From: Candidatus Latescibacterota bacterium
GTDB taxonomy: Bacteria > Latescibacterota > UBA2968 > GCA-2709665
Direction: 5' to 3'
DNA: 64,000 bases
NCBI GenBank assembly: GCA_965248435.1
Contig: OZ252100.1
Coordinates: forward strand, 2,944,001-3,008,000
In this document: positions 3,252-42,620 of the stretch, in pieces
Layout of the letters: the number at the start of each line of letters is the position of its first letter
Position numbering within the stretch: position 1 is the stretch's first letter
Notes under the pieces: model-generated
What the model saw: only the letters and a program-made list of their open reading frames with translations
Told to the model about the DNA's origin: nothing
Databases searched by the model: none
Translations under genes and position numbers: made by a program

Positions 3252-4127
3252 ATGCAGACAGATCTCGAGAAAAGGGTCCTTGGAAACACTGGGATGGTCG
3301 TAACGCAGCTTGGATTTGGCGCCGGCTTCAGAGGTGAACCCACCGAAGATGAGGCCGACGAAGTGTTCAACGCCGTGTTGGACGCCGGCATCAACTTCAT
3401 CGACACCGCACCCTGTTATGATTTCAGCGAGGACCGCATCGGCGCCAGTATCAGCCATCGTCGAAGCGAGTTTTATCTGGCGACCAAGGTCGGCTGCAAT
3501 ATCGGCCCGGGCGGAAAGTCGGAGGGCCCTCACATCTGGTCCGCTGACAACTGCCATAGAAACATCGACGAAAGTCTAAGGCGAATGAAAGTGGACTATG
3601 TGGATCTTCTGCAGCCGCACACTCCCTCTTTCGAAGAGACCGAGCAGGGCCGGCTCGTGGACGCACTGAACGAGATCCGCGATTCCGGAAAGACGCGATT
3701 CATCGGTATCTCCACAAATCTTCCGGACCTCCCCGCCTACATGGAGAGCGGCGCCTACGACACCTTTCAGATTTCTTACTCGGCGCTTCACCGTCGCCAC
3801 GAAAACCTGCTGCAGGATGCCGCAGACGCGGGCGGAGGCGTGATCATTCGCAGTGGAATTGCATTGGGCCATCGTGGCGGGGGACGGTGGGATAAGTGGG
3901 AGAAAGCGGGACTTGACGACCTGCTCGATGGAATGGACCGTTACGAATTCGTCCTGCGGTTCACGCTCACGCATCCTGCCTGCCATACAAATATCGTCGG
4001 AACGGGAGATTTGGATCATTTCAAAGCCAACCTCGCCGCTGCCAAAGCCGGTCCCCTTCCACAAGAGATCTATGACCAGGCCAAAGAGCGCCTGGCGCAG
4101 ATCGGAGAGGTACCGGCTGCTTCTTAA
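3252..4127 (+). CDS. Aldo/keto reductase
   Basis: GINFIDTAPCY, LATKVG, YVDLLQPH. GGAGG SD before ATG 3252. Confidence 0.92.
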   Translation: MQTDLEKRVLGNTGMVVTQLGFGAGFRGEPTEDEADEVFNAVLDAGINFIDTAPCYDFSEDRIGASISHRRSEFYLATKVGCNIGPGGKSEGPHIWSADNCHRNIDESLRRMKVDYVDLLQPHTPSFEETEQGRLVDALNEIRDSGKTRFIGISTNLPDLPAYMESGAYDTFQISYSALHRRHENLLQDAADAGGGVIIRSGIALGHRGGGRWDKWEKAGLDDLLDGMDRYEFVLRFTLTHPACHTNIVGTGDLDHFKANLAAAKAGPLPQEIYDQAKERLAQIGEVPAAS

Positions 4128-4230
4128 CGTGAATGAGATAAGGCAAACATGAGAATCCTCATTACCTCGGAGCCGAAGCGGCTCGAACGCTTTTGGATAA
4201 AGAACAGGACCAAACCGTAGGAGCAACGAG

Positions 4231-5247
4231 ATGAAAACTTACGCCTACGTCTCGATTTCCAAAGAGGATAAGATCCTGACTTTCGGGATGGATCCCGAAT
4301 CCGGGAAGCTCACGCCACTCAGAGAAGTCCCGATCAAGGGTGGGCCCTCGGCGCTGGCCGTGGATCCCGAATCGCGATTCCTTTACGCGAGCCTCCGATC
4401 CTCCAAAGAGATCGCGAGCTTCCGGATCAATCCGTTCTCTGGGGACCTGTCTCTCCTGGGCAGAGTGTCCCTGGATGCCGATGCCTGTTACATCGCCACG
4501 GACCGCAGCGCGAACTTTTTGCTCTCCGCCTACTACGGCGCCGGGAAGGTGACCGTACACCCGATCACAGAAGACGGGTCCGTGGGCTCGGATCTCGTCG
4601 CGTCACACGATACGGATTCTCACGCACACTGCGTTCTGCTGGACCGATCCAACAGATTTGTCTTCGTGCCGCACACCCTGCCCGCAAACGCGATCTACCA
4701 GTTCCAGTTCGATGAAGTCTCGGGTGCGCTCACGCCCGGCGAGGTCCCTGTGGTGACTCCGGAGATCCCCTCGGGGCCCAGGCACATCCTCTTCCATCCG
4801 GAGAAAGAGATCTGCTACACCTCGGACGAAGATGGCTCGTGCGTCACGGCCTACCGCTTCGATCCAACGTCTGGTACCCTGCGGGCGCTTCAGGCTCTGT
4901 CCACTCGCCCCGAGGGCTACGAGGGTGAAAACAACAGCGCGCAGATCCACATCACGCCCAACGGCCGATTCCTCTATGTTTCAAATCGGGGTCACGACAG
5001 CATCGCCTCTTTCTCGATCGATCGTGCGACAGGAGAGCTGACATCCATCGGGCATCAACCCACCGAAAAGAGACCCCGCGCCTTCAACATCGATCCAACG
5101 GGGAACTTCCTCTACGCCACCGGTCTGGACACGGGAAGGCTCGTTGCCTATCGGATCAATCCGGATTCAGGCAATCTCACGCCCCTGGAAACCCATCACG
5201 TTGGAGAGGGACCGATGTGGGTGCTCTTCCTGATATTACCCGGCTAG
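4231..5247 (+). CDS. 6-phosphogluconolactonase-like lactonase (beta-propeller), copy 1
   Basis: HAHC, GPRHILFHP, IHITPNGRFLYVSNRGHDSIA, PRAFNIDPTG. Confidence 0.9.
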   Translation: MKTYAYVSISKEDKILTFGMDPESGKLTPLREVPIKGGPSALAVDPESRFLYASLRSSKEIASFRINPFSGDLSLLGRVSLDADACYIATDRSANFLLSAYYGAGKVTVHPITEDGSVGSDLVASHDTDSHAHCVLLDRSNRFVFVPHTLPANAIYQFQFDEVSGALTPGEVPVVTPEIPSGPRHILFHPEKEICYTSDEDGSCVTAYRFDPTSGTLRALQALSTRPEGYEGENNSAQIHITPNGRFLYVSNRGHDSIASFSIDRATGELTSIGHQPTEKRPRAFNIDPTGNFLYATGLDTGRLVAYRINPDSGNLTPLETHHVGEGPMWVLFLILPG

Positions 5248-5262
5248 CGTACAAAAAGAGCA

Positions 5263-5288
5263 CCGGTTCCCGTGAAAATAGGAACCGG
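5263..5288. terminator. Hairpin downstream of lactonase 1
   Basis: CCGGTTCC-N10-GGAACCGG. A near-identical hairpin lies at 10186..10216. Confidence 0.55.
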
Positions 5289-5475
5289 CCACGTCGCCGT
5301 TCCGCTTCAGGCGCAAACCTTCGCCTGAAGCTGCGTGAAAGCGAATGCTAGGATTTCAGGACTTTCAGACTATATGCCTGACTGCTAACGAAAAACCGTT
5401 TGTTGATCGACCGACACCTGAATCGCTTTAGGCGTCCACCAGTGCCTGTAGTTTTTCAGTCAAATTAGACGCCTC

Positions 5476-5675
5476 CCCGCAGGCCGCACGAACATCGTCG
5501 GAACGGCAATCCTGGACCACTTCAACGCGAATCTCGCGGCTGCCAAGGCCGGATCTCTCTTCCGAAAGAAATCCGCTAACAGGCCAAGGAGCACCAGGCG
5601 TATCCTCGGCTGGCAGCCGAACCGCCTGGAACGCTTTTGGGCAAAAGACAGGACGAAACCGGTGGAAGGCAAGAG
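5476..5675 (+). pseudogene. Degenerate duplicate of the 3' end of AKR 3252..4127 plus its downstream spacer
   Basis: Translates PAGRTNIVGTAILDHFNANLAAAKAG versus PACHTNIVGTGDLDHFKANLAAAKAG. The spacer ...gaacgcttttgg...caggac.aaacc... matches 4170-4230. Confidence 0.8.
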
Positions 5676-6692
5676 ATGATAATCTACACCTACATCCCGC
5701 TATCCGGAGAGCAGAAGATCCTGACCTTCACGATGGATTCAGATACCGGCGAGCTTACCCCTGTGCGGAATATCGCGATTGCTGGGGGGCCTTCGGCGCT
5801 GGCCGTGGATCCCGAATCCCGATTCCTCTACGCGAGCCTGCGGTCCTCCTCTGAGATCGCGAGCTTCAGAATCGATCGGAGTTCAGGAGACCTGTCTCTT
5901 CTGGGTAAGGTATCCGTTGAGAACGACGCCTGTTATCTGACCGCGGACCGCAGGGGGAGGTTCTTACTCGCCGCCTGCTACAGCGCCGGAAAGGTGGCCA
6001 TCTATCCTATCGGACAAGACGGAACGCTGGTCGACCCACCCGTCACAGCGCTTTCAACGGCCTGGCACGCCCACTGTATTTCGATAGACCCATCCAACAG
6101 GTTTGTCTTCGTTCCGCATACATTGCCGACCAATGCGATCTACCAGTTTAAGTTCGATGAAGAATCGGGTGCGCTCACGCCCGGTGAGGTCCCGAAGGTC
6201 ACCCCGGAGATCCCCTCGGGACCCAGGCACATCCTCTTCCACCCGGAGAAAGAGATCGCCTATACCTCGGACCAAAACGGGTCGACCGCCACGGCCTACC
6301 GCCTCGATCCCACGGCCGGAACCCTTCATCCCTTCCAGACCCTTTCGACTCTCCCCGAAGGCTACAAGGGCGACAACAATTGCTCGCAGATCCATATCAC
6401 CCCCTCTGGTAGATTCCTCTACGTTTCAAACCGGGGCCACGACAGCATCGCCTGCTTCTCAATAGACGACACGACGGGAAAACTGACTTCCATCGGGCAG
6501 CAGCCTACGGAAAGGAAACCCAGGGCCTTCAACATCGATCCCACGGGCAACTTCCTCTTCGCGGCCGGTCGGGATACAGGCAGGCTTGCGGCTTACCGAA
6601 TTGATCCCGAGTCCGGCCGCCTCATTTCGCTGGAAACGTATCACGTCGGCGAGGCGCCCGTGTGGGTACAGTTCTCGAGATTACCGGACTAG
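5676..6692 (+). CDS. 6-phosphogluconolactonase-like lactonase, copy 2
   Basis: Close paralog of 4231..5247 with the same motifs. Confidence 0.9.
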   Translation: MIIYTYIPLSGEQKILTFTMDSDTGELTPVRNIAIAGGPSALAVDPESRFLYASLRSSSEIASFRIDRSSGDLSLLGKVSVENDACYLTADRRGRFLLAACYSAGKVAIYPIGQDGTLVDPPVTALSTAWHAHCISIDPSNRFVFVPHTLPTNAIYQFKFDEESGALTPGEVPKVTPEIPSGPRHILFHPEKEIAYTSDQNGSTATAYRLDPTAGTLHPFQTLSTLPEGYKGDNNCSQIHITPSGRFLYVSNRGHDSIACFSIDDTTGKLTSIGQQPTERKPRAFNIDPTGNFLFAAGRDTGRLAAYRIDPESGRLISLETYHVGEAPVWVQFSRLPD

Positions 6693-6933
6693 CAAGAGCA
6701 ATTTTGTTTGTTTAGAGCCAGGTTTCAGATAAGGCCGTAGCTTGAATGCGCCAGTGGTTCCTGTTTGAGGCACTGAAATAACCCACTGAAATCAAAGTCT
6801 TTCAAAGAAATGACCCTCTAACCGCCGCAACCTCGTCACGATTCCACCCACGTCGAGTTCTGAGCCCGTTTTTCGGATCATAGTATCTCCAATAATCACA
6901 GTAAGTTTACTTCTTATCCGGTCTGACAATCTG

Positions 6934-6948
6934 TGGCACAAGGTTTGC
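6934..6948 (+). promoter_or_regulatory. sigma54 (-24/-12) promoter upstream of the CHRD gene
   Basis: TGGCACAAGGTTTGC = TGGCAC-N5-TTGC. Confidence 0.65.
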
Positions 6949-7182
6949 CATGATGTGTTGCCGAGCCGGCAAGAGGAGAGATTTGTCCTAAATCGAAGGC
7001 ACCGTCTACTAAGGATCCCTCTGAGATGAAGCTTGCTCGGGGGGTCTTTGTGCTTTCGGTGCAAAGTGAATCCATGAGACCAGAATAGGAGGATTGCCTA
7101 TGGAGATTCATCGAAATATGATGGGGAATAGGGGCGAGGGTCGAAGTTGGCTACAATTTGGACAAGTCGGGAGGGTCAGGTC

Positions 7183-9774
7183 GTGAAAAGCGAAATCTTA
7201 GTCCTAGCAACCATTTTGTCTGTCTTCCTGGTCTCCGTAGGCGTCTATGCCTCGCACGACCGGGCGGTCGTAAACGTCTCAGTGGACCTGGAGGGGGCCA
7301 ACACGCCTGCTTCGGCTACCACCTTTACGGCCTCCCTGAATGGGAGTCAGGAGGTCCCTTCGGTAACCGTTGACGGGACCGGGACCGGGGCATTCGTACT
7401 GGACCGCGAAGGCCTGCACTACCGCATCACCGTGAACGAACTTACGGGTGACATGACAGCGGCGCACTTCCATAATGCGTCGGCTGGAGCAAGCGGCGGG
7501 GTCGTCCGCACGATCCCGTTTGACGGGACCTCGGCGTCCGGTGTGTGGCGCTCAACCGACGCCGAACCCCTGACGGCTGAGATGATCAATGAAATCGTCT
7601 CTGGGAACATCTACGTCAATGTGCACACGGCAGCGAATCCCCCTAGGGAAATCCGCGGCCAGGTAACTCTGGCCTCAGGCGCAGGATTGTGGGCGTCACT
7701 CGACGGTGACCAGGAAGTCCCTTCAGTATCTGTGGACGGTAAGGGGACAGCGACGTTTGTCCTGGACAGCGACGGCCTCCACTACTGGCTCTCAGTGGAC
7801 GGGTTGACCGGAGCGATCACCGGCGCGCATTTCCACAACGCGCCCGCAGGAGAAAGTGGAGGCGTCGTTCGTGGCATTACCGATTCCTTCAGTGGTACGA
7901 CAGCGACCGGGACGTGGAGCGCGACAGATAGCGAGCCGCTTAGCCCCGACATGATCGATGAGATCCTGGCCGGGAACATCTACCTGAACGTCCACACCGC
8001 GGAAAACCCCCCAGGCGAGATCAGGGGTCAGGTGATCCTGATCTCCGGCGCCAGGATGGTCGCCGCCCTGGATGAGGCTCAGGAGAACCATACGGTAACC
8101 GGTGATACAGAAGGCAGCGGCACCGGGGCCTTTGCCTGGGACGGCTCTGGGCTCTCCTATCAGATCACAGTGAGCGGACTCACCGGCCCGATGACAGCCG
8201 CACACTTTCACAATGCTTCCGCGGGGGAAGACGGAGGCGTGGTCAGAACCATTACGTTTGATGGAACAACGGCGACCGGTGTCTGGCGCGACTCGGATGC
8301 GGAGCCCCTCACTCCTGAAATGATTGTTGAACTCCTGGCGGGCCGGATCTATGCCAACGTCCACACCGCGGAAAATCCAGCAGGTGAGATCCGGGGTCAG
8401 GTCAACATCTCCCCTGGCATCGGCCTTCAAGCCGCCCTGGACGGAAGCCAGGAAACTCCCTCTGTAGACGTTGACGGAAGGGGAACCGGGGCGTTCACCT
8501 GGGATGAAGATGGCCTCCACTACTGGGTCACCGTGGACGACTTGACCGGGGCAATCACCGGCGCACACTTCCACAATGCTCCCTCGGGGCAGAGCGGTGG
8601 AGTCGTCCACGGCATTACAGAAACCTTTTCTGGAAACACCGCCTCAGGGGTGTGGTCAATATCAGACCCGGCGTTCTACGGAGAACTTTGGGCCGGCAAT
8701 CTTTATGTGAATGTCCACACCGCGGCAAACGCGCCCGGTGAAGTCCGCGGCCAGGTCAAACTGCCCGTATCCGGCGCAGGAGGTCGAACTGTGGCCTTCT
8801 CGCGGTCGATATCCGGGAGAAAAAAGGACTTCCTTTGGAAAGCCACGACAGACATCGCCGGAAGCGCTTCCATAGAGATCACCGCAGAGACCGAAGGTGT
8901 ATTCCGATCTTCAGGCGCAAACGGATACTATGTGGCTCGACTCTCAGAACCCACGGGAAAGATATTGGAGCAGTGGGGTAGCATCCCGATTAAGGGCGGC
9001 CGGATGCTTGACTTGAGTCTGCGCGCCGGCCAGCGAGCGGCGATCGCCGGACCTGTATTCGGCACCCCCCTCGAAGCGGCAGGAAAGCCGGCGTCCGGTC
9101 CAAGTACCGTGACGGTTCTATCTGGCATTCAGCCCCTGGCACCCATAGCCTCCCTCGGTTCGGTCGAGATCAACGAGAAGGGCACGATCGGGATGCCGAT
9201 TCAGATTCTTGGAGCGAACCACCTCTATGCTGGGGATTTCACCTTAACCTTTGATCCTCACCTGGTGCACTTCCGCAGCGGGGAAATCAATGGGACCGAG
9301 TTAGGCTTTTCCGAACAAAGCCCGGGTCGCGTTTCCATCTCGTTCCACGGACTGACAGCCTCCGACAAGGCCGAGATCCGGCTGTTCTTTGACCGCCTCT
9401 CCGGAGACGATCGTCTAGGTCGCGTCCATCTGGCTGGACTCTTCATAGATACAGAGTTTATGCCAATCTCGTTCGTGAACATCGCTGCGCGGTTCGATCG
9501 GAATCTCCCGACGACCCATGTTCTCTATCCCAACTATCCCAACCCCTTCAACCCGGCAACGCAGATTCGCTATGACCTGCCGGAGGCCGAAAAGGTCAGG
9601 TTGACGATCTATAACTCGCTTGGCCAGGAGATCGGTCGACTGGTCGATTCGCGTCAGGCAGCGGGTTCCTACTCCGTAACCTGGGACGCGGAGGGATTTG
9701 CGTCCGGACTTTACCACTACAAACTCGAGGCCGGTTCATTTGACGTGGTCCGGAAGATGGTCTTGCTGAAATAG
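7183..9774 (+). CDS. Secreted protein with 4 CHRD domains, a cohesin-like domain and a T9SS/Por-type C-terminal domain
   Basis: Signal peptide (KSEILVLATILSVFLVSVGVYA). Four L.G.QE.P...AHFH...NVHT..NP.GEIRGQ repeats. C-terminus YPNYPNPFNPATQIRYDLP...KMVLLK. Confidence 0.85.
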   Translation: MKSEILVLATILSVFLVSVGVYASHDRAVVNVSVDLEGANTPASATTFTASLNGSQEVPSVTVDGTGTGAFVLDREGLHYRITVNELTGDMTAAHFHNASAGASGGVVRTIPFDGTSASGVWRSTDAEPLTAEMINEIVSGNIYVNVHTAANPPREIRGQVTLASGAGLWASLDGDQEVPSVSVDGKGTATFVLDSDGLHYWLSVDGLTGAITGAHFHNAPAGESGGVVRGITDSFSGTTATGTWSATDSEPLSPDMIDEILAGNIYLNVHTAENPPGEIRGQVILISGARMVAALDEAQENHTVTGDTEGSGTGAFAWDGSGLSYQITVSGLTGPMTAAHFHNASAGEDGGVVRTITFDGTTATGVWRDSDAEPLTPEMIVELLAGRIYANVHTAENPAGEIRGQVNISPGIGLQAALDGSQETPSVDVDGRGTGAFTWDEDGLHYWVTVDDLTGAITGAHFHNAPSGQSGGVVHGITETFSGNTASGVWSISDPAFYGELWAGNLYVNVHTAANAPGEVRGQVKLPVSGAGGRTVAFSRSISGRKKDFLWKATTDIAGSASIEITAETEGVFRSSGANGYYVARLSEPTGKILEQWGSIPIKGGRMLDLSLRAGQRAAIAGPVFGTPLEAAGKPASGPSTVTVLSGIQPLAPIASLGSVEINEKGTIGMPIQILGANHLYAGDFTLTFDPHLVHFRSGEINGTELGFSEQSPGRVSISFHGLTASDKAEIRLFFDRLSGDDRLGRVHLAGLFIDTEFMPISFVNIAARFDRNLPTTHVLYPNYPNPFNPATQIRYDLPEAEKVRLTIYNSLGQEIGRLVDSRQAAGSYSVTWDAEGFASGLYHYKLEAGSFDVVRKMVLLK

Positions 9775-9890
9775 TGTTTAAGATAGAAGCCCGAGCGGTC
9801 AATCATTTGAGAGGTCTGTGGTCAGAGGTCAGCCCCCGGCTCTGCCCTAGCTGGCCAATGGCCGAATTCGATTGTCGCGTTGGACGAGGG

Positions 9891-9934
9891 GAGAGCAGTC
9901 CGCTTTCTGAATTGAAATCGGCTGCTCTCTTTTA
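9891..9934 (+). terminator. Rho-independent terminator after the CHRD gene
   Basis: GAGAGCAG...CTGCTCTC followed by TTTT. Confidence 0.55.
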
Positions 9935-10001
9935 TCATCATGCAAGGTTGTTCACGCTAAACATTGATAAGTGAGCGCAATTGTGTTAGACCAGTTCGTA
10001 G

Positions 10002-10175
10002 CCCCGCGCCTTCAACGTCGATCCCACGGGCAACTTCCTCTTCGCGGCCGGTCGGGATACAGGCAGGCTTGCGGCTTACGGAATTGAACCCGAGTCCGGC
10101 CGCCTCATTTCGCTGGAAACGTATCACGTCGGCGAGGCGCCCGTGTGGGTACAGTTTCTGACTTTACCCGGCTAG
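10002..10175 (+). pseudogene. Orphan duplicate of the lactonase 3' end
   Basis: Encodes PRAFNVDPTGNFLFAAGRDTGRLAAYGIEPESGRLISLETYHVGEAPVWVQFLTLPG*, nearly identical to 6519..6692. No start codon or N-terminal part. Confidence 0.9.
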
Positions 10176-10185
10176 CGTAGAAAAA

Positions 10186-10216
10186 GGCCGGTTCCCGTGG
10201 AAAATGGGAACCGGCC
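10186..10216 (-). terminator. Terminator hairpin (U-tract on the minus strand, after the histidine kinase)
   Basis: AAAAA-GGCCGGTTCCC-N9-GGGAACCGGCC. Confidence 0.65.
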
Positions 10217-10253
10217 AAGTTGCTGTTCCGTTACTCAGAATGCCCCTGAGTGG

Positions 10254-12500
10254 CTACCGTTCTTTTGCCAGCACATTGTTCAGCGTCTTGCTCAGCTCGT
10301 TGAGCCCAAGGGGTTTCTTCAAGAGTCCTTTGACACCTTCGGGCAGGGTCTTGCCCACCTCTCCCAAATACCCCGTCATCACCACCCCCAGAACTTTCGA
10401 GTCTTTCTTTTGTAGCGCCTCAAGCATATCCAGGCCACCCATGTCCGGCATCACCACGTCTGTAAGCACGAGTGCGATTTCGTCGCGATGCGTATCGTAA
10501 ACCTCAAGTCCTTCCCGGCCGTTCGATGCCGTGACCACTCGGTAGTTCAGATGCTCAAGCATTTCCTTGGCCACAACTTGAACCGCAGGATCATCTTCGA
10601 CCATCAGGATCGTCTCCCCTAGACCTCGCGAGATGCCCTCCTGTTCTTCCACCGCAGTGATCTCGTCTACCGATTGGGGAAAGTAGATTGTGAAGGTTGT
10701 ACCTTTTCCTACTTCGCTCTCCACGTCGATATACCCGTCGTGCTGCTTCACGATGCCATAAATCTGGGACAATCCAAGACCCGTCCCCTCTCCGGGTTGT
10801 TTGGTCGTGAAAAACGGCTCGTAGATATGCTTTACGACTTCGGGCTCCATCCCTTCGCCGGTATCAGACACCGTCAACACCACCCAACTGCCGGGTTGCA
10901 CGTCAGGAGCGGCAATAGCGGAGCTGGAGGATCGAATCGCCACCGTGTCCCCTGGCTCCAGACTCAGGAGAGAGAGCCCGATTCGAAGCTCTCCACCCTC
11001 TCGCATCGCATCTCTGGCATTGACCGCCAGATTGTTGATCACCTGTTGTAGCTGGGTCAGGTTCCCGTTGACGGTATAGTCTCCTCTTCTGAATTCGGTC
11101 ACCGTCTCAATAGATTCTGGCAGTGTTCGCTCCAACAGTTTCACGGTCTCCTTTAAAAACGGCACCATGTCCACTGGTTGTTTCTCCGCAACGGTCTTGC
11201 GGCTGAAATCCAGGATTTGCCCAATCAGTTGCGCTGCACGGTGACCCTGAGAAATCATCATCTCAAGACGCTCCTTAGCGTCATCAGATAAATCCGAGCT
11301 CATACTCAGAAGCTCTGCAAAGCCCATCATGACTGTCAGCATATTGTTAAAATCGTGCGCGATGCCTGCGGCAAGCTGACCTACGGAAGCCAGCCTCGCC
11401 TGTGCATGCAGGCGATCCTCGCTCTCCTTCCGTGAGGTGATGTCCCTCGCTGCTACTGTATAGAGGAGACGCTCACCGATCATTGTTTTGGAAATATAGA
11501 TCTCTAGTGGAAACGCAGATCCATCCTTTCTATGTCCTTGAAGTTCCAACCATTGTCCCATTACTGAAGAAGATCCATTTTTCAAATCGAACACCAAGCC
11601 ATTACCTGGTTCACCTCGGATCTCGTGTCCTATCAGGACTTGCAGATTCTTACCCACCAACTCATTGTGGTCACATTTCCAGATATTGACCGCCTCTTGA
11701 TTGATCATAACAACGTTCAAGCTCTCGTCGACTGCGATAATCCCTTCTCCTACTGTATCTAAGACAGACTGCATCTGAGCCTCTGACCGTTGCAGTTCGA
11801 AAGTACGCGTTGCGATCTTTACGCTCATTTCGTTGAAGCTATCTGTTAGCACTCCAATTTCGTCTGTACCGCTCTTTTCAACCGTTTTACCGTATTTCTC
11901 TTCTATCCCGATCTGCTTTACACTCTTGACAACGTTTTGTATGGGTACAGTGATCAGTCGGCTCAAATAGAAAGACATTACTAGGCCCAAAAGAAGAATT
12001 CCTAAACTGATCAGAAATCCCGCGAAGCGGATTCTGCTTATCTCTTGATCTCGATTCTCGAGCGAGAAGCCAACAATTAAATTTGCTTGTAAGTCCTCCT
12101 CAATATGTAAGGGTACGGTTGTGTGCAATATCTGGCCGGCCTCAAATGTACCTGTATCTGATTCGAATCTTGAGGGTATTGAAACCTTAGAGGGATTATA
12201 TGAAATGAGCTGAGACCCATCTTCGTGCAATATCGCAAGGTAAACGATGGCTGAATCTCTCCTCGCGAAAACGAAAAGCTGATTGACAAAATTGTAATCT
12301 CCGTCCTTCAAGGCGAGCGATACACCGCTTGCTAGAATTTGGACCGAGCCCTCTGCTTTGCTTTGCAAAGCCCTTGTGACCTGCTCTCTTTGTTTTGCTG
12401 GAAAGTATATAAGGACAAAAGAGGAAATAGACAGAAGTACCACTGTGGAAACACTGGCTATCTTCAGTCGTATCGGCAGATTCTTGAAACCTTGTATCAC
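10254..12500 (-). CDS. Hybrid sensor histidine kinase (2 TM, HAMP, PAS, HisKA, HATPase, REC)
   Basis: LAAGIAHDFNN, NLAVNARDAM, EPFFTTK..GEGTGLGL, LVLTDVVMP. GTG start at 12500 is inferred. Confidence 0.9.
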   Translation of the reverse strand: MIQGFKNLPIRLKIASVSTVVLLSISSFVLIYFPAKQREQVTRALQSKAEGSVQILASGVSLALKDGDYNFVNQLFVFARRDSAIVYLAILHEDGSQLISYNPSKVSIPSRFESDTGTFEAGQILHTTVPLHIEEDLQANLIVGFSLENRDQEISRIRFAGFLISLGILLLGLVMSFYLSRLITVPIQNVVKSVKQIGIEEKYGKTVEKSGTDEIGVLTDSFNEMSVKIATRTFELQRSEAQMQSVLDTVGEGIIAVDESLNVVMINQEAVNIWKCDHNELVGKNLQVLIGHEIRGEPGNGLVFDLKNGSSSVMGQWLELQGHRKDGSAFPLEIYISKTMIGERLLYTVAARDITSRKESEDRLHAQARLASVGQLAAGIAHDFNNMLTVMMGFAELLSMSSDLSDDAKERLEMMISQGHRAAQLIGQILDFSRKTVAEKQPVDMVPFLKETVKLLERTLPESIETVTEFRRGDYTVNGNLTQLQQVINNLAVNARDAMREGGELRIGLSLLSLEPGDTVAIRSSSSAIAAPDVQPGSWVVLTVSDTGEGMEPEVVKHIYEPFFTTKQPGEGTGLGLSQIYGIVKQHDGYIDVESEVGKGTTFTIYFPQSVDEITAVEEQEGISRGLGETILMVEDDPAVQVVAKEMLEHLNYRVVTASNGREGLEVYDTHRDEIALVLTDVVMPDMGGLDMLEALQKKDSKVLGVVMTGYLGEVGKTLPEGVKGLLKKPLGLNELSKTLNNVLAKER

Positions 12501-12598
12501 AGTTCGAACTCGCCTAAGTACTATTAGATGTATAGCGGGACTCGATTGCCAGTCGCCCGTTTTTACGGGAATTCGCGCAAGCAACTCGACATTCGAGA

Positions 12599-13087
12599 CT
12601 ATTGAATCGGATACTCGCTGCTCTTGAAATCTCTTCCATCAATTTTTAGATCCTTAACCGAACTCATCGATGAATTGAATTGATCAACGCCAACAAACCC
12701 AATTGCGCCGGCGTGTTGCGAGATATATTTCAGAACCCCGGCTTCTGAAGCCAACGCAACACGTAAGACCTGAAGCTCTCCATTCAATAACCTGCCTATC
12801 CACTCCAAGCGGGTCCTTGTTTGCGAAAGACCCACAACCTTTTTATAGAATCCGCGGGCCATACTCGATTTGTGTTTGTAATCAAGGAGTACGATAGCTG
12901 ATCCTTCTTCTTCCTGGTTTTCCCACACCGTTACTTCCGCCCGGTAGATACGTCTTAACTCAATCAAACTAAGAGAATCTACCGGGTTGCTACTATTCAC
13001 GACCACCACGACCTGAGCGTGGAGTCCCGCGTTACCAAGGATCAGAAAAGCAGAAACCAAAAATGTGGATAGTTTGTACGTATTCAT
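12599..13087 (-). CDS. Small PstS-like periplasmic binding-fold protein
   Basis: Signal peptide, VVVVNSSNPVDSLS..ELRRIY, GAIGFV. Confidence 0.7.
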   Translation of the reverse strand: MNTYKLSTFLVSAFLILGNAGLHAQVVVVVNSSNPVDSLSLIELRRIYRAEVTVWENQEEEGSAIVLLDYKHKSSMARGFYKKVVGLSQTRTRLEWIGRLLNGELQVLRVALASEAGVLKYISQHAGAIGFVGVDQFNSSMSSVKDLKIDGRDFKSSEYPIQ

Positions 13088-13101
13088 CGACCAAACCACC
13101 A

Positions 13102-14334: not shown

Positions 14335-14414
14335 CGTTGCTCCTCTTCGCCTACTTAAAGGGGATTCACCTCTGAACTCCAACGTAGAGGATCCCTCTGC
14401 GTAACAAGGCAGAG

Positions 14415-15027: not shown

Positions 15028-15055
15028 CTGCTCGCGAATCTTTTGTGCAGACTAG

Positions 15056-16013: not shown

Positions 16014-16016
16014 GCC

Positions 16017-19190: not shown

Positions 19191-19206
19191 CAGGAGCGGA
19201 CCAGAC

Positions 19207-31283: not shown

Positions 31284-32222
31284 CTACGACACACCCAGTT
31301 CTTCCACGGCCTGGTGCAAATCCGGAGGAAGGGGACCCGCCTCGGCAGCCGCAACGTTCTCTTCGATCTCGGCAGGCGTAGTGGCACCGACCAGGAGCGT
31401 CGCAACGTCAGGGTCGGCGATAATGAACCGTATGGCCATTGCCACGAGCGACAATCCACTTTCCTTCTGCAGGGCAACGAGGGGTTCAATTCGCTCCCGA
31501 ACTTCAGGCGAAAGATTCGAAGCGGCCCAATCCGGACGAGACAGAGCCCGCTGCTCATACGAACATGACCCACCCAGAACCAGGGCGACCTGGTTCCGGC
31601 TTGCGACCGGCATCAGCTTCTTTCGAGTCCCTCTCCTCGTAAGACTGTAGTGGAACGCGCTCAGGCACGTGTCAACATCCACGTTTGGCAGGGCGTGAGC
31701 CAGGTGATCCGGGTTATTCCCCGTGATCCCGATGAACCGACACAGATCCTGGGCCCTCGCCTCCCTGAGGAATTGCATCGCCGGCGCGTCCGCAAAGTCG
31801 TAGGTGGTCTCCGGATCCAGAAGCGACTGCCCAGCCCCTGCATCGGACCACCACCGCTGCCAGTCGGCCTCGTGCAGTTGCAAAACGTCCACACTTTGGC
31901 GTCGCAGGAGTCTGAGCCCCTCCTCGAACTGAGCAAACAGCGCCTCTTTCGATCTGAGGCGTTCCGGTCTGGCGAGCCAACCCACCTTCGTCGCCATAAG
32001 GTACGGTTCGGTTCGTCCTTCCAGTGCCTCGCCTAAAACCGCCTGAGACATGCCGTTGCAATAGAAGGGTGAGGTATCGAAGTAGGTCACCCCGAGGTCG
32101 AGAGCGCGACGCACGGTGGCTACGCCATCCTCGAAAGAATGCTTGGTAAGGAACCCGCCGCCCAGTCCCAGAACCGTTGCGCGCTCACCTGTCTTTCCGA
32201 GTTGGCGGCTTTCAAGTGCCAT
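31284..32222 (-). CDS. Aldo/keto reductase (tandem paralog 3)
   Basis: GVTYFDTSPFY, ATKVG, VDVLQLHEADW. Confidence 0.9.
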   Translation of the reverse strand: MALESRQLGKTGERATVLGLGGGFLTKHSFEDGVATVRRALDLGVTYFDTSPFYCNGMSQAVLGEALEGRTEPYLMATKVGWLARPERLRSKEALFAQFEEGLRLLRRQSVDVLQLHEADWQRWWSDAGAGQSLLDPETTYDFADAPAMQFLREARAQDLCRFIGITGNNPDHLAHALPNVDVDTCLSAFHYSLTRRGTRKKLMPVASRNQVALVLGGSCSYEQRALSRPDWAASNLSPEVRERIEPLVALQKESGLSLVAMAIRFIIADPDVATLLVGATTPAEIEENVAAAEAGPLPPDLHQAVEELGVS

Positions 32223-32233
32223 TTCTGTATCCT

Positions 32234-33187
32234 CTAATCGGCTTCGTGCCAGGGTAATCCCAACGCTTCGACAGCCTGGTGGAGATCCTGAGGCAGGGGA
32301 CCTGCCTCTGCGGCGGCAACGTTCTCTTCGATTTCGGCCGGAGTTGTCGCCCCGATCAAGAGGGTCGTAACGTCAGGATCGGCGATGAGGAACCGTATGG
32401 CCATGGCCACGAGCGAAAGCCCGCTCTCCTTCTGCAGGTCTAGAAGAGGTCCAACCCGCTCCAGCATTTCGGGGGGAAGCCTCGAGGCGGCCCAATCCGG
32501 CCGAACCTGCGCCCGGTGCTCGTAGACGAACGCCCCGCCCAGAATCAGTGCGACCCCGCGGCGGCTTGCTGAGGGCATTAATTTCCTGCGGACCCCCCTG
32601 TTGACCAAACTGTAATTGAAGGCACTCAGGCAGGTATCCACCTCAACGTGCGGCAGGACGCGGGCCAGATGGTCCGGATTGTTGCCCGTGATCCCGATAT
32701 ACCGACACAGTCTCTGTTCCCTCGCCGCCCTCAGGAACTGCATCGCCGGCGCATCGGCAAAATCGTAGTCGGCTTCCATATCCAAGAAAGTGTCTTCAAC
32801 CTCCACATCGGACCAATATCGATGCCAGTCCGCCTCGTGCAGTTGCAGAACGTCGACGCTAGAGCGCCGCAGAAGGCGAAGCCCTTCCTCGAACTGGGCG
32901 AACAGCGCGTCTTGCGATCTGAGTCGTTCCGGCCTGGCGGGGCGGCCCACTTTTGTCGCCAGAACGTACTCCTCGGATCGTCCCTCCAGCGCCTCACCAA
33001 GGACAGCCTGAGACATGCCTTTGCCGTAGAAGGGCGAGGTGTCGAAGTAGGTCACGCCAAGCTCGAGGGCGCGGCGCACAGTCGCTACACCCTCAGCGAA
33101 AGAATGTTCAGAAATCATGCCACAGCCCAGTCCCAGAACAGTGACGTGCTCACTTGTCCGCCCCAGTTTACGCTTCTCTAAAGCCAC
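32234..33187 (-). CDS. Aldo/keto reductase (tandem paralog 2)
   Basis: Same motifs as its neighbours. Confidence 0.9.
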   Translation of the reverse strand: MALEKRKLGRTSEHVTVLGLGCGMISEHSFAEGVATVRRALELGVTYFDTSPFYGKGMSQAVLGEALEGRSEEYVLATKVGRPARPERLRSQDALFAQFEEGLRLLRRSSVDVLQLHEADWHRYWSDVEVEDTFLDMEADYDFADAPAMQFLRAAREQRLCRYIGITGNNPDHLARVLPHVEVDTCLSAFNYSLVNRGVRRKLMPSASRRGVALILGGAFVYEHRAQVRPDWAASRLPPEMLERVGPLLDLQKESGLSLVAMAIRFLIADPDVTTLLIGATTPAEIEENVAAAEAGPLPQDLHQAVEALGLPWHEAD

Positions 33188-33205
33188 TTTCGGTTCTCCA
33201 TCGTC

Positions 33206-34141
33206 CTAAAGCCATCCCAACGCCTCGACCGCCCGGTACAGGTCCTGGGGCAAAGGCCCAGCTTCCGCGGCGGCAACATCCTCTTCGATCTCAGCGGGCG
33301 TCGACGCCCCGACCAGAATCGTCGTCACGACAGAATCGGCCAGGAGAAATCTCACGGCCAGGGTCACGAGTGAAAGTCCGCACTCCGCCTGAAGTTCGTA
33401 AAGCTGCTCAATACGTGCTTTTCTCTCGGGGCTCATTTTCGAAGAGGCTACCCAGTCCGGACGAACCTCCGCCAGCTTCCCGTTGACAAACACCTGTCCA
33501 AGCATCAAAGCCAGCCCGCGTTCTCTGACTATCGGTATCACCTGGCTCCGGGCCTCGCGTCCGATCACATCATAGTGACACGCGCTCAGGCAGGTGTCCA
33601 CCTCTACGTTATCCAGGACGCGCGCGAGCTGATCCGCACTGTTGCCCGAGATCCCGACGAAGCGACACAACCCTTCAGCCTTCGCCTCTCTCAGCACCTG
33701 TATGATCGGCGCTTCCGCGAAATCGTAATCGGTCTCCAGGTCCAGGACGCGCCCTTCCGACGCGTCGTCCGACCACCAACAGTGCCAGTCCGATTCGTGC
33801 ACCTGCAGGACGTCCACGCTCTTCCGGCGTAACAGCTGGAGACTGTCCTCGAACTGTGTGCGCAGCGCATCACGCGACCGGAAACGGCTCGGAACGGCCA
33901 GGTGACCGATCTTGGTCGCAAGCATATACGAGTCGGATCGCCCCGAGAGTGCATCGCCCAGGATCGCCTGGGACATACCCTCACAATAGAAAGGTGACGT
34001 GTCGAAATAGGTCACCCCGAGCTCGAGGGCTCGACGGACCGTGGCCACCCCGTCGGCGAAAGAATGTTTGTAAAGGCAGGCCCCACCCAACCCGATCACG
34101 GTCGCCAACTCACCCGTCTTCCCGAAGGGCCGGCTTTCCAA
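33206..34141 (-). CDS. Aldo/keto reductase (tandem paralog 1)
   Basis: GVTYFDTSPFY, LATKIG, VDVLQVHESDW. Confidence 0.9.
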   Translation of the reverse strand: MESRPFGKTGELATVIGLGGACLYKHSFADGVATVRRALELGVTYFDTSPFYCEGMSQAILGDALSGRSDSYMLATKIGHLAVPSRFRSRDALRTQFEDSLQLLRRKSVDVLQVHESDWHCWWSDDASEGRVLDLETDYDFAEAPIIQVLREAKAEGLCRFVGISGNSADQLARVLDNVEVDTCLSACHYDVIGREARSQVIPIVRERGLALMLGQVFVNGKLAEVRPDWVASSKMSPERKARIEQLYELQAECGLSLVTLAVRFLLADSVVTTILVGASTPAEIEEDVAAAEAGPLPQDLYRAVEALGWL

Positions 34142-38423: not shown

Positions 38424-38456
38424 GACGAACAACGATCCACGAACGACGATTCACGG
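38424..38456. repeat. Intergenic short-unit repeat (ACGAAC/ACGATCC type); other copies at about 42652-42682 and 52501-52525
   Basis: acgatccacgaacgacgat is shared with 52501. aacgacgatcaacgatccacg at 42652. Confidence 0.6.
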
Positions 38457-38555
38457 CTATCGCCACTCGTCAATCAGCGCACTCCCGGCATAATCGCTGC
38501 CCATGATTCGCCAGTAGCCATTCGTCTCTCCCCCCACGATCACCACGTGGATTTT
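38457..38555 (-). repeat. 99-bp orphan duplicate of the 3' end of the UGSC-like gene (40974..41072)
   Basis: KIHVVIVGGETNGYWRIMGSDYAGSALIDEWR*. 6 differences in 99 nt by eye, only one amino-acid change. Confidence 0.92.
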
Positions 38556-38585
38556 GAGAAAAATTTAGAGAATTCCGCGCAAGGG

Positions 38586-38601
38586 TGGCATTCCAATTGC
38601 A
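38586..38601 (+). promoter_or_regulatory. sigma54 promoter upstream of the ankyrin gene
   Basis: TGGCATTCCAATTGCA (GG-N10-GC). Confidence 0.6.
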
Positions 38602-38626: not shown

Positions 38627-38944
38627 ATGCTAAGGCGTCTATTGAATTACGATGGAAATCTGCAGATAGTCTTCAACCTGTTTGAGGCAGCCTACGGTGG
38701 CTTGGCCATCGTGGTCAATACGCTCGTTGACAGGGATGCTGACGTCAACGAACAAGACGCCTACGGATGGACTCCCCTCATGTATGCAGCATACGCCGGA
38801 CACACCGAGGTGGTCAAAGTTTTGCTCGAGGCGGGTGCCGAAACGAACCTAAGGAGCAAATTTGGAAAAACGGCCTATGACTGGGCGCTTCAGGCTGAAC
38901 ACTTTGAAATCGCCACATTGCTCAGGCCATCTAACGTTAAGTAA
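38627..38944 (+). CDS. Small ankyrin-repeat protein
   Basis: ADVNEQDAYGWTPLMYAAYAGHTEVVKVLLEAGA, GKTAYDWA. GAGGAG SD. Confidence 0.85.
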   Translation: MLRRLLNYDGNLQIVFNLFEAAYGGLAIVVNTLVDRDADVNEQDAYGWTPLMYAAYAGHTEVVKVLLEAGAETNLRSKFGKTAYDWALQAEHFEIATLLRPSNVK

Positions 38945-38953: not shown

Positions 38954-39736
38954 TTACGCTGCTTCATCGGTCAAATAAAGCGCGTGATAGGGCTCTTTAG
39001 GGAGATAACCTAACTTTTCCGCAAGCCCACAAGATATGGGATTGTGAGCATCCCAGTTTGGACTTATCCCATGTTCTAAACAGAATTCGATGAGCGCTGC
39101 AGAAACTGCGGTCGCCAACCCCTTTCTTTGATACTCTTCATTTGTATTTACTTGGATTTCGATGGAATTCTTGAATGCCGCAGCGGAAGTGGCCCCGGAA
39201 ACGACCCGGTGGCCTGATAGCGCGCAAAATCCGATACCCCGGTTAAAGAAATCCTCTGACGATTCAAATGAGTAAGAGGGGATCAAGTTTGGGTTTACTT
39301 CCTCAATCATCTGATCCCCTAGCTCTTGGTCAATGCGTTCTATATGAAAGCCAGCGGGTGATTGAACGATCAGATTCTGGATGTGACGAATATCGACTCT
39401 TTCACACGAATATGGGAATCGCATAGAAGTCTCGATCCCAGTCTTATGCACACCAAATATGATTTCTCTCCAATGTTCACAGCCGATCAAGAAGCAATAA
39501 GTGGGCAACTGTTGCACAAGTTGCCTTGCGATTGGGTGGCGAGAATCGCCGCCAAGAAATGTGAAGGACCCCAATTTCACATACGCAGCTTGCGGATCCG
39601 ATAAGTCATCCACTACTGCAGAGCCACAACGTCCTTCAAGAGTAGAATCAATGAATGTTCGGAGGTTCCGATGTCCTGCAAACAGCGAGCTAAGGATGTG
39701 CCTTTCGCTTGGCGCAACTTTGACCAAAGTAGTCAC
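38954..39736 (-). CDS. GNAT family N-acetyltransferase
   Basis: IEIQVNTNEEYQRKGLAT, PNWDAHN..S..LAEKLGY. Confidence 0.85.
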   Translation of the reverse strand: MTTLVKVAPSERHILSSLFAGHRNLRTFIDSTLEGRCGSAVVDDLSDPQAAYVKLGSFTFLGGDSRHPIARQLVQQLPTYCFLIGCEHWREIIFGVHKTGIETSMRFPYSCERVDIRHIQNLIVQSPAGFHIERIDQELGDQMIEEVNPNLIPSYSFESSEDFFNRGIGFCALSGHRVVSGATSAAAFKNSIEIQVNTNEEYQRKGLATAVSAALIEFCLEHGISPNWDAHNPISCGLAEKLGYLPKEPYHALYLTDEAA

Positions 39737-40942: not shown

Positions 40943-40973
40943 CACACTTAATTCCTTCCCTGCGTTTCTTCTG

Positions 40974-42620
40974 CTATCGCCACTCGTCAATCAGGGCACT
41001 CCCGGCATAATCGCTGCCCATGATTCGCCAGTAGCCATTCGTCTCTCCCCCCACAACGACGACGTGGATCTTGTCTTTGGGAAAGATCGGAATCAACGCG
41101 TCTTCTTCCGCCTCGAGCATTGTGGCGTATGGCTCGACACCGTTGATCGCCTGTGGGTGGATGTAGTTCTGCACAAGCTGATAGTCCCAGAAGACCCCGG
41201 CCGGGAGGGTGGCCGCGTCGTGCACCCATTCGATCAGCTTCTCCTTCGTGTCAAAGCCGCCGCGTTCGACGAATTGTCTGGCAACAATCGGGTCCAGGAT
41301 CAACACGGGCGGATTCAGCGGGTTTTCTCCTCGCAGCAGGTTCTGAACGTGCTCGCGCCAGTGTGTCTCCCTCAAGCCGAGAAGGAATGAGGTCGACCTA
41401 CAGCCCTGGAAAATGCTGACGACGCTGCTCTCCGTTTCGAACCCCTGCTGAACGTGGAACGGATCCCAGGGGCTCCGCTCCTCATTCTCGGCGAAGGTGA
41501 CACTGTTATACGCGTAGTTGTTGCCCTGCGAGCCCATATACGTCTTGCCAGGTTCCGATCCACCCTGGAGATTTTGGGACAACAGACTGTATGCCCGCCC
41601 GATCGTCGCGTTCGCGTGGTTATACGGACCCATCGCCCCAGTCCCCCAGTTCATTTCAATCTCGCGGCGTATCGGACCGTTGATCACCAGCATCGCGGCC
41701 GCGGAACTCGTCGTGCTGTGCCTGGCCGTGACGCCGGTCGATGCTACCGCCAGGATCACGGGAAGGTACTCAGGTCTGGCGCCCGCCATAACCGCGTTCA
41801 CGGCAACCTTCTCCACCGTGTACTCCCACGCCTCCCGCGTCAACGTCGGCCGCATCTTTCCGACGACTTCATCCGGTTCGCGACTTGTCCCGGACAGCAT
41901 CTCCGTGACACGCTGCTCGGTGGGCAGGACGATCGGGAGCCGGTCGGTCCATTCGTTTTCCAGGAAGAGTCGGTGCAGATTCTCCTCCGTGTCCGGCTCC
42001 AGCAGACGCGGTGCGGACCGATCAAAATCGCCCGCAGACAAATCTTCTTCGCTGAGCGGAAGGGTCAGTGCATCGATGACCTCCTGCATCACGGGCTCGC
42101 CCGTGACCACATCGTTTCCGTCGACATAGGCCCGCAGCTCCGCGGGCGATTTGCCCATGACCGGTTGAGGAACGAACACGAACCGCTGATGAGGCATGCC
42201 CTTGGCGAAGGCGTACTGCCTCACCAGGTCCTTGAACGATTCCGTCTGTATGGAAGCTGTCGGGACCCCATATTCACTTTCCAGCGTAATGCAATGCTCG
42301 GCGACCACCGGCGCACACGTGCTTCAGTGGCCAACGGCAACGACCGCCGCATCCCCTCTGTCCCGAATTTCGCCGAAGAGCTCGGGATCCTTCTCGGTAT
42401 ACACCCCGGACTTTCTCCTGACCTCCGTCTTCACAGCGGGCATGTGCTCTGAGAACCACGCCTCCATTTGCTGTATCAGGATATCCCCGTCATCGAACCT
42501 GCAGTCCAGGAGATAGACCGTCTTCCCCTCCAGACCCTCGGGACGGGGCGCCATGCCTGCCCGCGTAATTTGCGGCGGAAAACCCATCGGGTTCAGCACG
42601 GTCATCTTTTCACCTGCCAT
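40974..42620 (-). CDS. UGSC-like selenoprotein (GH-U-STC), about 548 aa
   Basis: ORFs 42324..42638 and 40974..42308 are in frame across TGA 42326-42324, giving VAVGH-U-STCAPVVAEH. AAGGAGG SD before ATG 42620. Downstream motifs WTDRLPIVLPT, TVEKVAVNAVMAG, NATIGRA. Confidence 0.8.
42291..42323 (-). promoter_or_regulatory. Putative SECIS element of the UGSC-like gene
   Basis: TGC.GC.CGGT-GGTC-GCCG.A.GCA hairpin with a GGUC loop about 17 nt after the UGA. Confidence 0.5.

What the first reader, a model, noticed from the sequence alone, without database searches (positions are those of the whole stretch)
3976..41072. Recurring 'gene - cargo - orphan 3' tail' architecture, three times within about 37 kb
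Seen: AKR (tail at 5476), lactonase (tail at 10002) and the UGSC-like gene (tail at 38457) each keep an intact ORF, followed by 1.3-3.3 kb of extra DNA and a 100-200 bp orphan copy of their own 3' end. Two of the cargos carry sigma54-type promoters. Known: integrative elements restore target genes this way, but usually carry an integrase and often target tRNA genes. Inference: this may be a general integrase-independent or trans-mobilised route of gene capture into protein-coding 3' ends, e.g. single-crossover capture of DNA from relatives. It is my best candidate for an undescribed system in this window.
Basis: partly seen in the sequence, partly recalled or inferred. Interest (0 to 1): 0.7.

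Follow-up and report, generated by a model that had tools for sequence, protein, structure and literature searches.

The report
Stranded gene tails behind inserted DNA
Small blocks of extra genes sit behind ordinary genes here, each followed by a stranded copy of that gene's end; this is a real but already described scar of gene gain, most likely made by the cell's general recombination machinery rather than by a new mobile system.

Summary
The three repeats exist. For the two that reads cover, they are no assembly chimera. They are not three events of one kind. The AKR case is an old (76%) tandem duplication of [AKR end + lactonase] with a decayed remnant. The lactonase (175 nt, 93%) and UGSC (101 nt, 94%) cases are true integrase-free insertions with a long target duplication. 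The genome holds about 13 such scars by my curation, two with empty alleles in relatives. Relatives show a similar raw rate (6 in 2.4 Mb against 16 in 5.66 Mb). There is no shared junction motif, and the sigma54 motif travels with the CHRD gene. Mostly synonymous differences, an identical core with diverged ends and homology ending at the stop codon fit single-crossover integration of circularised DNA from a relative. That route gave 109-950 bp duplications in E. coli (PMC3240628). The pattern is described as 'insertion with long target duplication' (PMC2853133). This scan found the same architecture before in at least six notes on other genomes. Real, known kind, modest interest.

The parts
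3252..4127 (+). Aldo/keto reductase gene, intact (parent of remnant 1)
   Evidence: PF00248; start from my gene model
4149..4215 (+). Fused remnants of two epimerase-like genes (start of the first, end of the second) that lie between AKR and lactonase in the same-genus genome G001
   Evidence: the name 'epimerase-like' is my reading of the G001 sequence, not a family search
4231..5247 (+). Lactonase 1 (lac1), 76% identical to lac2; the 'cargo' of case 1
   Evidence: PF10282
5262..5289 (-). Terminator-like hairpin, 74% like the hairpin behind the orphan lactonase tail
   Evidence: (family D15)
5469..5600 (+). Decayed AKR 3' remnant (75%, two frameshifts, one stop, lacks the last 30 nt), fused to a second epimerase-like remnant by a different deletion
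5676..6692 (+). Lactonase 2 (lac2), intact; its last 174 nt are the left copy of the case-2 repeat
6934..6948 (+). sigma54-type motif upstream of the CHRD gene
   Evidence: also upstream of CHRD homologues elsewhere; function not tested
7183..9774 (+). Cargo of case 2: four-CHRD-domain protein with a C-terminal secretion/sorting domain
   Evidence: PF07452 x4, PF18962; full-length homologues in few of 168 phylum genomes
10002..10176 (+). Orphan lactonase 3' tail, 93% to lac2, reading frame open to the stop
10186..10216 (.). Hairpin behind the orphan tail, homologous to the one behind lac1; marks the orphan's 3' end as the ancestral gene end
38432..38456 (.). Heptamer-repeat arm of a dispersed small element directly behind the UGSC orphan's stop (another at 42649-42673)
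   Evidence: family D14; 30 genome hits
38456..38556 (-). Orphan UGSC 3' tail, 94%, frame open; differences 5 synonymous and 1 conservative
38586..38600 (+). sigma54-type motif upstream of the ankyrin gene
   Evidence: function not tested
38627..38944 (+). Cargo of case 3: ankyrin-repeat protein
38954..39736 (-). Cargo of case 3: GNAT acetyltransferase
   Evidence: PF12746
39794..40942 (-). Cargo of case 3: PD-(D/E)XK nuclease, PADLOC candidate family PDC-S26. The cargo has GC 47% against 57% for the genome, and no DNA match in 167 of 167 other phylum genomes
40974..42308 (-). UGSC-family gene, intact; its last 100 nt are the gene copy of the case-3 repeat
   Evidence: PF24696

Best explanation
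Cases 2 and 3 are recombinase-free insertions made by the cell's own homologous recombination. A DNA fragment from a related strain or species begins inside a gene and runs past that gene's stop into whatever follows there (the cargo). It is closed into a circle by one illegitimate joint, or is looped out between the repeats of an already filled site. It then integrates by one crossover in the shared gene tail. The gene stays whole with a partly new tail, the cargo follows, and the other tail is stranded without promoter or start. 3' events survive more often than mirror-image 5' events because they keep the gene's own promoter and leave a silent fragment. Case 1 is the cargo-free form or an ordinary old tandem duplication: a second [AKR end - two genes since deleted - lactonase - hairpin] unit. 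SHOWN: the repeats, intact genes, absence of integrase, empty alleles for two sister events, divergence pattern. INFERRED: the donor, the circle, the crossover position and the reason for the 3' bias.
For: (1) Targets are unrelated genes, and the aligned coding parts of the repeats vary from 35 to 635 nt over 17 pairs; the longest whole repeat is 859 nt. (2) No shared motif or hairpin at 15 junction pairs; the best 6-mer occurs in 3 of 15. (3) A UGSC homologue in an unrelated metagenome contig (L092) has its own orphan tail with a breakpoint about 7 codons from ours; 1 of 109 homologue loci, 64 of which had 3 kb or more downstream. So this gene is no att hot spot. (4) Gene tail and orphan differ mostly at silent sites: 165 synonymous and 110 non-synonymous over 17 pairs, pN/pS 0.21, P 8e-13 against exact duplication with neutral decay. 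(5) An identical core with diverged ends in 5 of 10 pairs tested, including lac2 (longest run P 0.024, ends P 0.001) and UGSC (P 0.019, 0.027). (6) Homology stops at or within about 10 nt of the stop codon in 8 of 11 pairs shown, runs on for 45 and 112 nt in two, and ends 25 nt before the stop in one. (7) Empty alleles: the 859-nt MauE/UvrD repeat is single-copy in G001 and the flanking genes are contiguous in G002, G004 and G006 (4 of 5 genomes); the alcohol-dehydrogenase site is empty in G001 and G038. (8) Experimental precedent: in E. coli, 56 of 60 clones from linear DNA with one-sided homology carried a duplication by re-circularisation and single crossover, 109-950 bp in the 14 sequenced (PMC3240628, passages). 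(9) comEC and dprA are present, which is weak evidence because 10 of 14 control genomes have them too.
Against: No donor and no conspecific empty allele was found for the window's own events. CHRD homologues lie next to a lactonase in 0 of 11 loci (1.5-kb flanks), and G001 lacks both regions altogether. The silent-site excess is pooled. By branch, orphans carry 37 synonymous and 36 non-synonymous changes against 39 and 17 for the genes (6 pairs, 47 sites unresolved). For lac2 and UGSC alone the numbers are too small (P 0.049), and the AKR remnant looks neutrally decayed (6 and 12). An identical core can also come from later gene conversion: in strain X5 a 74-nt part of the orphan does not align. 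The MauE/UvrD event needs two new joints, not one. The 3' bias is modest and depends on curation (16:9 and 17:8 uncurated, P 0.11 and 0.054).
Confidence: 0.55

Rival explanations
1. Exact long target duplication during break repair between sister chromosomes (the Kobayashi model). The copies start identical, then diverge and are partly re-homogenised by gene conversion.
For: Two of the cargos checked carry nuclease genes (PD-(D/E)XK in case 3; GmrSD_N in the CBS-gene event). Orphan branches have more non-synonymous changes than gene branches (36 against 17). The MauE/UvrD event has two mid-gene joints.
Against: Pooled pN/pS 0.21. The 635-nt UvrD orphan has 22 synonymous and 8 non-synonymous derived changes, no stop and only in-frame indels. 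Homology ends at the stop codon in most pairs, whereas a random duplication should often run into the intergenic DNA. Most cargos have no nuclease.
Confidence: 0.15
2. Decayed site-specific islands. Each cargo is the remains of an integrase-bearing element that restored the gene's 3' end, like e14 with icd/icdC, and later lost its integrase.
For: Such elements give the same anatomy, with synonymous differences between gene and orphan (PMC13626634, passages). The genome is deletion-prone (two different deletions of the epimerase-like pair). It holds 16 tyrosine-recombinase and 3 serine-recombinase hits.
Against: About 13 different targets would each need their own lost integrase. Among 68 proteins scanned (67 of the 96 listed around 11 events, plus one ORF), an integrase appears only as half of the recombinase + Y2-transposase IS pair inside the two largest cargos. 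UGSC homologues show no reuse of the site. Mismatches cluster at the 5' start of the repeat, where an att core would be identical (the expectation is from my own knowledge).
Confidence: 0.13
3. Homology-facilitated illegitimate recombination (HFIR). Linear donor DNA crosses over in the gene and joins illegitimately back inside the host's tail, displacing it, as proposed for Rhs and T6SS orphan arrays.
For: Needs only one new joint, explains the silent differences and the end of homology at the stop; proposed for orphan 3' ends (PMC5361080, passages). The orphan lactonase tail keeps the ancestral hairpin.
Against: HFIR generally deletes host DNA rather than duplicating it, and was about 10 times rarer than circle-and-crossover in E. 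coli (PMC3240628). It does not by itself give an identical core. No change of ancestry is visible along lac2 upstream of the repeat.
Confidence: 0.12
4. A dedicated trans-acting system (for example the genome's recombinase + HUH transposase pair, or an unknown annealing protein) cuts out 'gene tail + cargo' circles and targets gene ends.
For: Six copies of an integrase + Y2-transposase pair exist in the genome. The H47 island is mobile without its own recombinase and without RecA (PMC5426353, PMC3191183, passages).
Against: No shared sequence, hairpin or k-mer at the junctions. Breakpoints differ between homologues. The rate is similar in relatives. General recombination suffices.
Confidence: 0.05

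Closest known systems
[quoted passage not shown] 2000, seen only as cited; Furuta, Abe and Kobayashi 2010, PMC2853133, sections 15 and 18 and passages read)
   Same: Insert under 20 kb with no other mobile gene; direct repeats over 30 bp, imperfect (384/412 in one of their cases); repeats often span start or stop codons and leave the target gene intact; empty site in a relative.
   Different: Defined there for restriction-modification cargo. Here the cargo is mostly ordinary genes (CHRD protein, GNAT, ankyrin, permeases), with about 13 sites in one genome, and the copies look like two diverged functional alleles.
Circularisation and single crossover of linear DNA with one-sided homology in E. 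coli (PMC3240628, passages)
   Same: Gives target duplications of 109-950 bp with foreign DNA between them, RecA-dependent, with no dedicated recombinase.
   Different: A laboratory construct with identical homology, delivered by conjugation. Here the route of entry and the circle are inferred.
H47 genomic island and other recombinase-free elements with long flanking repeats (PMC3191183, PMC5426353, passages)
   Same: Small island, imperfect repeats of about 145 bp (76% identical), no integrase, hybrid sites after excision.
   Different: Mobility was assayed and is RecA-independent, and its att sites are widespread. Nothing of that kind is shown here.
Prophage e14 at icd with the icdC C-terminal pseudogene (PMC13626634, passages)
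   Same: Intact gene, element, orphan C-terminal copy with synonymous differences.
   Different: A prophage with its own excision; the cargos here carry no phage or integrase genes.
C-terminal displacement in Rhs and T6SS effector-immunity arrays (PMC5361080, passages)
   Same: An incoming module displaces the old 3' end downstream; stacking is possible (two stacked tails behind the CBS-domain gene at G000 364-368 kb).
   Different: There the new tail is a different toxin domain under selection. Here the tails are near-equivalent enzyme ends and no immunity gene is kept.

Membership tests
Insertion with long target duplication (Furuta 2010) | Direct repeat longer than 30 bp flanking the insert | tested here: met
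   175 nt and 101 nt
Insertion with long target duplication (Furuta 2010) | Insert under 20 kb with no other mobile-element gene | tested here: met
   3.3 and 2.4 kb; no integrase, resolvase or transposase
Insertion with long target duplication (Furuta 2010) | Empty site with one copy of the repeat in a related genome | tested here: inconclusive
   Not found for the window's events (G001 lacks the regions, X5 is filled); found for two sister events elsewhere in the genome
Insertion with long target duplication (Furuta 2010) | Restriction-modification genes in the insert (their screening criterion) | tested here: not met
   Case 2 has none; case 3 has a lone PD-(D/E)XK nuclease (PDC-S26) and no methylase. 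So it shares the geometry but is not an RM member.
Site-specific integrative element / genomic island at a gene 3' end | Tyrosine or serine integrase in the element | tested here: not met
   0 of 16 PF00589 and 0 of 3 PF00239 hits lie in the window
Site-specific integrative element / genomic island at a gene 3' end | Same attachment site reused in other genomes | tested here: not met
   1 of 109 UGSC homologue loci has a downstream orphan tail by blastn, at a different breakpoint; lactonase homologues were not surveyed
Recombinase-free circularisable element (H47-like) | Excised circle and empty site detectable in the population | tested here: inconclusive
   Only contigs were available; cargo depth is close to flank depth (46.9 vs 36.2/40.7; 43.6 vs 39.4/45.6; 11.6 vs 12.5/17.3), and contigs drop rare variants
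Recombinase-free circularisable element (H47-like) | Dependence on or independence of RecA | not testable with these tools
   Needs an experiment
HFIR product | Host deletion and 3-10 bp microhomology at the illegitimate joint | not testable with these tools
   No donor sequence is available; a duplication, not a deletion, is seen
Tandem gene duplication (case 1) | Repeat spans a whole gene and its neighbours' ends; single copy in an outgroup | tested here: met
   4171-5248 against 5615-6693 at 75.8%, plus AKR end and hairpin; one lactonase at the syntenic site in G001

The most novel reading that the evidence does not exclude
The scars are made by a dedicated, undescribed trans-acting machinery that clips 'gene tail + downstream cargo' circles out of donor chromosomes and steers them into the same gene's end in relatives. 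That would be a sequence-independent cassette system, able to use any gene end as its attachment site, at about two scars per megabase across a whole order of bacteria.
Probability: 0.06. Interest if true: 0.75.

Novelty: new member of a known kind. Interest (0 to 1): 0.28.

Why it matters
The pattern itself is in print. What this genome adds is scale and cargo. About 13 scars lie at unrelated genes, carry mostly non-defence cargo, and show signs that the two copies were functional alleles of different lineages. If that holds across bacteria, gene gain behind protein-coding genes without any recombinase is a common route that integrase-centred island finders would miss. The stranded tails would also record the donor's distance from the host. 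In my seven paper searches I met no genome-wide census of such scars for general cargo, but the library lacks most subscription papers, including Nobusato 2000.

Tried and rejected
Assembly chimera: rejected for cases 1 and 2 by short-read unitigs and by a second strain; not tested for case 3.

tRNA target: none in the window.

sigma54 motif as part of the architecture: 56 strict sites in the genome, 5 in 13 cargos against 0.84 expected, but 2 of these are the discovery cases and 3 lie in one cargo beside a sigma54 activator; 1 of the 10 cargos outside the window has it. It lies upstream of 4 of 10 CHRD-domain homologue loci elsewhere (L275, L280, L281, L282) and of L285, which matches only the C-terminal domain. 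Rejected.

Shared junction motif or hairpin: none over 15 events.

Heptamer element as the carrier: it lies outside the UGSC cargo and has 30 genome hits. Not pursued.

Donor context: none. No lactonase beside 11 CHRD-query loci; the case-3 cargo has no DNA match in 167 other phylum genomes; the one 98% UGSC contig (L045) ends before the tail.

Special status of this genome: rejected. One pipeline gave 16 raw 3'-downstream cargo hits in 5.66 Mb and 6 in 2.4 Mb of five relatives. By eye, 3 to 4 of the relatives' hits are clean (one search shows five of their loci).

Rows dropped before my curated count of about 13: an IS30-like fragment, two dispersed-repeat hits (2290228, 3163872), a truncated paralogue (257491), a regulator beside a resolvase (5545432), lac1 (same event as lac2), and tandem-paralogue or pseudogene arrays. 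Mirror-image 5' cases kept as possible: at most 4 (1616287, g02340, g04154, 3050529). The curation is by eye and was done after seeing the data.

Empty-site searches that gave no answer: the CBS-gene event and the DUF6785 event. The FAD-oxidoreductase event showed that its first 'cargo' gene also lies downstream in G001.

Gene calls come from my own hexamer model, so starts and short genes are uncertain. An apparent frameshift in the second G001 epimerase-like gene comes from one base missing between two fetched stretches. Prudhomme 2002 could not be read. No supplements were opened.
Full report
OBSERVATION. The window is G000:C1:2,944,001-3,008,000 of a 5.67-Mb, two-contig genome. All three repeats are present: AKR 3987-4097 against 5488-5600 (75%), lac2 6519-6693 against 10002-10176 (93%), and UGSC 41073-40973 against 38556-38456 (94%). 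The parent ORFs are intact. There is no tRNA in the window. None of the genome's 16 tyrosine-recombinase hits or 3 serine-recombinase hits lies in it.

NOT AN ASSEMBLY ARTEFACT. Contigs of three runs of one sample cover window 1500-21400 as unitigs without a differing letter and break at a 139-nt collapsed repeat of 1.2 to 2 times flank depth. A run of another study (X5) has one 5,121-nt contig spanning the end of lac1, the AKR remnant, lac2, the cargo and the orphan, with about 1.5% differences. So cases 1 and 2 exist in a second strain. That contig has depth 4.8 only. It also shows a 407-nt deletion inside lac2 and a 74-nt part of the orphan that does not align. Case 3 was outside the stretch laid.

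CASE 1 IS A TANDEM DUPLICATION. The homology does not stop at the AKR remnant but runs through the whole lactonase (75.8% over 1,085 nt) and includes the hairpin behind it. The same-genus genome G001 has one lactonase at the syntenic site, with two further genes between AKR and lactonase. Both copies in the window lost those two genes by different deletions. lac1, lac2 and the G001 gene are about equally distant, so the second copy is old or came from another species. The remnant has decayed: 6 synonymous and 12 non-synonymous derived changes, a stop and two frameshifts. Similar tandem duplications with a partial neighbour, in both 3' and 5' form, are common in this genome.

CASES 2 AND 3 ARE INSERTIONS. 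Case 2 carries a 3.3-kb cargo with a four-CHRD secreted-type protein. The orphan is followed by the hairpin that also follows lac1, so the orphan's 3' end is the ancestral gene end. Case 3 carries 2.4 kb at 47% GC with a PD-(D/E)XK nuclease (PADLOC candidate PDC-S26), a GNAT and an ankyrin gene, with no DNA match in 167 other genomes of the phylum.

GENOME-WIDE. Three scans gave these counts of same-strand orphans. At 85% identity or more within 15 kb: six 3'-downstream, none 3'-upstream and none 5'. Over the ends of 3,814 genes within 15 kb: 17 3'-downstream, 4 3'-upstream, 8 5'-upstream, 4 5'-downstream. In the block pipeline, cargo class: 16, 4, 9 and 8. The 3' bias is therefore real at high identity (P 0.016) and weak in the raw sets (P 0.054 and 0.11). 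By eye I keep about 13 events with unrelated DNA between the copies, against at most 4 mirror cases; dropped rows are listed under Tried and rejected. Two sister events have empty alleles: MauE/UvrD (859-nt repeat; single copy in G001, contiguous in G002, G004 and G006) and an alcohol dehydrogenase (G001, G038). Among 68 proteins scanned around these events, integrases occur only as part of a recombinase + Y2-transposase IS pair in the two largest cargos. Relatives show 6 raw hits in 2.4 Mb, so this genome is not special. One of 109 UGSC homologue loci, from an unrelated metagenome contig, has its own orphan tail at another breakpoint.

SIGNS OF MECHANISM. Over 17 pairs the copies differ by 165 synonymous and 110 non-synonymous changes (pN/pS 0.21). 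Polarised with outgroups in 6 pairs, gene branches carry 39 and 17 and orphan branches 37 and 36. The orphans therefore spent part of their history as working genes and part decaying. The window's two insertions alone do not decide this. In 5 of 10 pairs, including both window insertions, an identical core is flanked by diverged ends; local-alignment edges and later gene conversion can contribute to that. Homology ends at or near the stop codon in 8 of 11 pairs. No motif, hairpin or k-mer is shared at 15 junction pairs. The sigma54 motif follows the CHRD gene in other genomes and is absent from 9 of 10 cargos outside the window.

EXPLANATION. The simplest route to all of this is single-crossover integration of a circle made of a relative's gene tail and its downstream DNA. 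In E. coli, linear DNA with one-sided homology re-circularised and integrated in 56 of 60 clones, with duplications of 109-950 bp, about ten times more often than HFIR (PMC3240628, passages). A filled site can loop the same circle out again, as hypothesised without direct evidence of release for RM units (PMC2853133, section 18). I put this at 0.55. Rivals are exact duplication with later conversion (0.15), decayed islands (0.13), HFIR (0.12) and a dedicated trans system (0.05). The circle, the donor and the selective reason for the 3' bias are inferences.

WHAT IS KNOWN. Furuta et al. describe insertion with long, variable target duplication and no other mobile element, in many species, with repeats that often span start or stop sites and leave the gene intact (PMC2853133). 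The H47 island is a recombinase-free element with imperfect repeats of about 145 bp. e14/icdC shows the integrase-made version, and Rhs/T6SS arrays the displacement version. I also saw passages of PMC3784515 and PMC2884548, which added nothing decisive. The window's cases meet the geometric criteria of the first kind but not its RM-cargo criterion. Six earlier notes of this scan report the same architecture in other genomes. They are unchecked, one is marked as partly fallen, and I use them only to say that the pattern recurs. I had named the same closest kind before seeing them (note).

VERDICT. Real; two insertions and one old duplication; a new example of a known kind. Interest 0.28.

Noticed in passing
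window 5994-6400: In the second strain (run X5, one contig of depth 4.8) lac2 has a 407-nt, frame-breaking deletion, so lac2 may be dispensable there.
   Followed up: no
window 10070-10143: This part of the orphan tail does not align in X5 although the length is kept, which hints at gene conversion between the tails in one of the strains.
   Followed up: partly
window 10254-19413: A block absent from G001 between the lactonase and gene 20480: a hybrid histidine kinase and two genes at 44-48% GC, a xanthine-dehydrogenase-like three-gene set and another AKR.
   Followed up: no
window 31284-34141: Three tandem AKR paralogues (67-72% identical); the window holds eight AKR genes.
   Followed up: no
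window 38432-38456, 42649-42673, 52501-52525: Heptamer-repeat arms of a dispersed small element; two of them bracket the UGSC gene pair with its cargo, a block missing in G001.
   Followed up: partly
L126:3396-8013 (G000 C1 916,895-921,512): One 859-nt duplication spans the ends of two convergent genes (MauE-like and UvrD), so both stay intact and both leave an orphan tail; the GC-rich cargo also holds a short asparaginase-like C-terminal fragment (name from my reading).
   Followed up: yes
L125 (G000 C1 364,344-368,340): A CBS-domain gene is followed by two stacked orphan tails (92% and 75%) and a third short piece, with a GmrSD_N gene in the cargo.
   Followed up: partly
L129 and L136: Two copies of a DUF1016_N + SNase gene, each near a recombinase + Y2-transposase pair and near-identical-type AKR paralogues.
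   Followed up: no
L092:987-1069 and 1624-1705: An independent orphan tail (85.5%) behind a UGSC homologue in an unrelated metagenome contig, with about 550 nt between the copies.
   Followed up: yes
L222 (G004 C1 about 2,361,549-2,364,393 by block coordinates 261,549-264,393; the stretch lies in L227): A clean gene - 526-aa cargo - 83-nt orphan tail event in the same-family genome G004.
   Followed up: partly
window 7183-9774: Full-length four-CHRD secreted-type proteins occur patchily in the phylum (G004, G038, G077, G078, G079), several with a sigma54-type motif upstream.
   Followed up: partly
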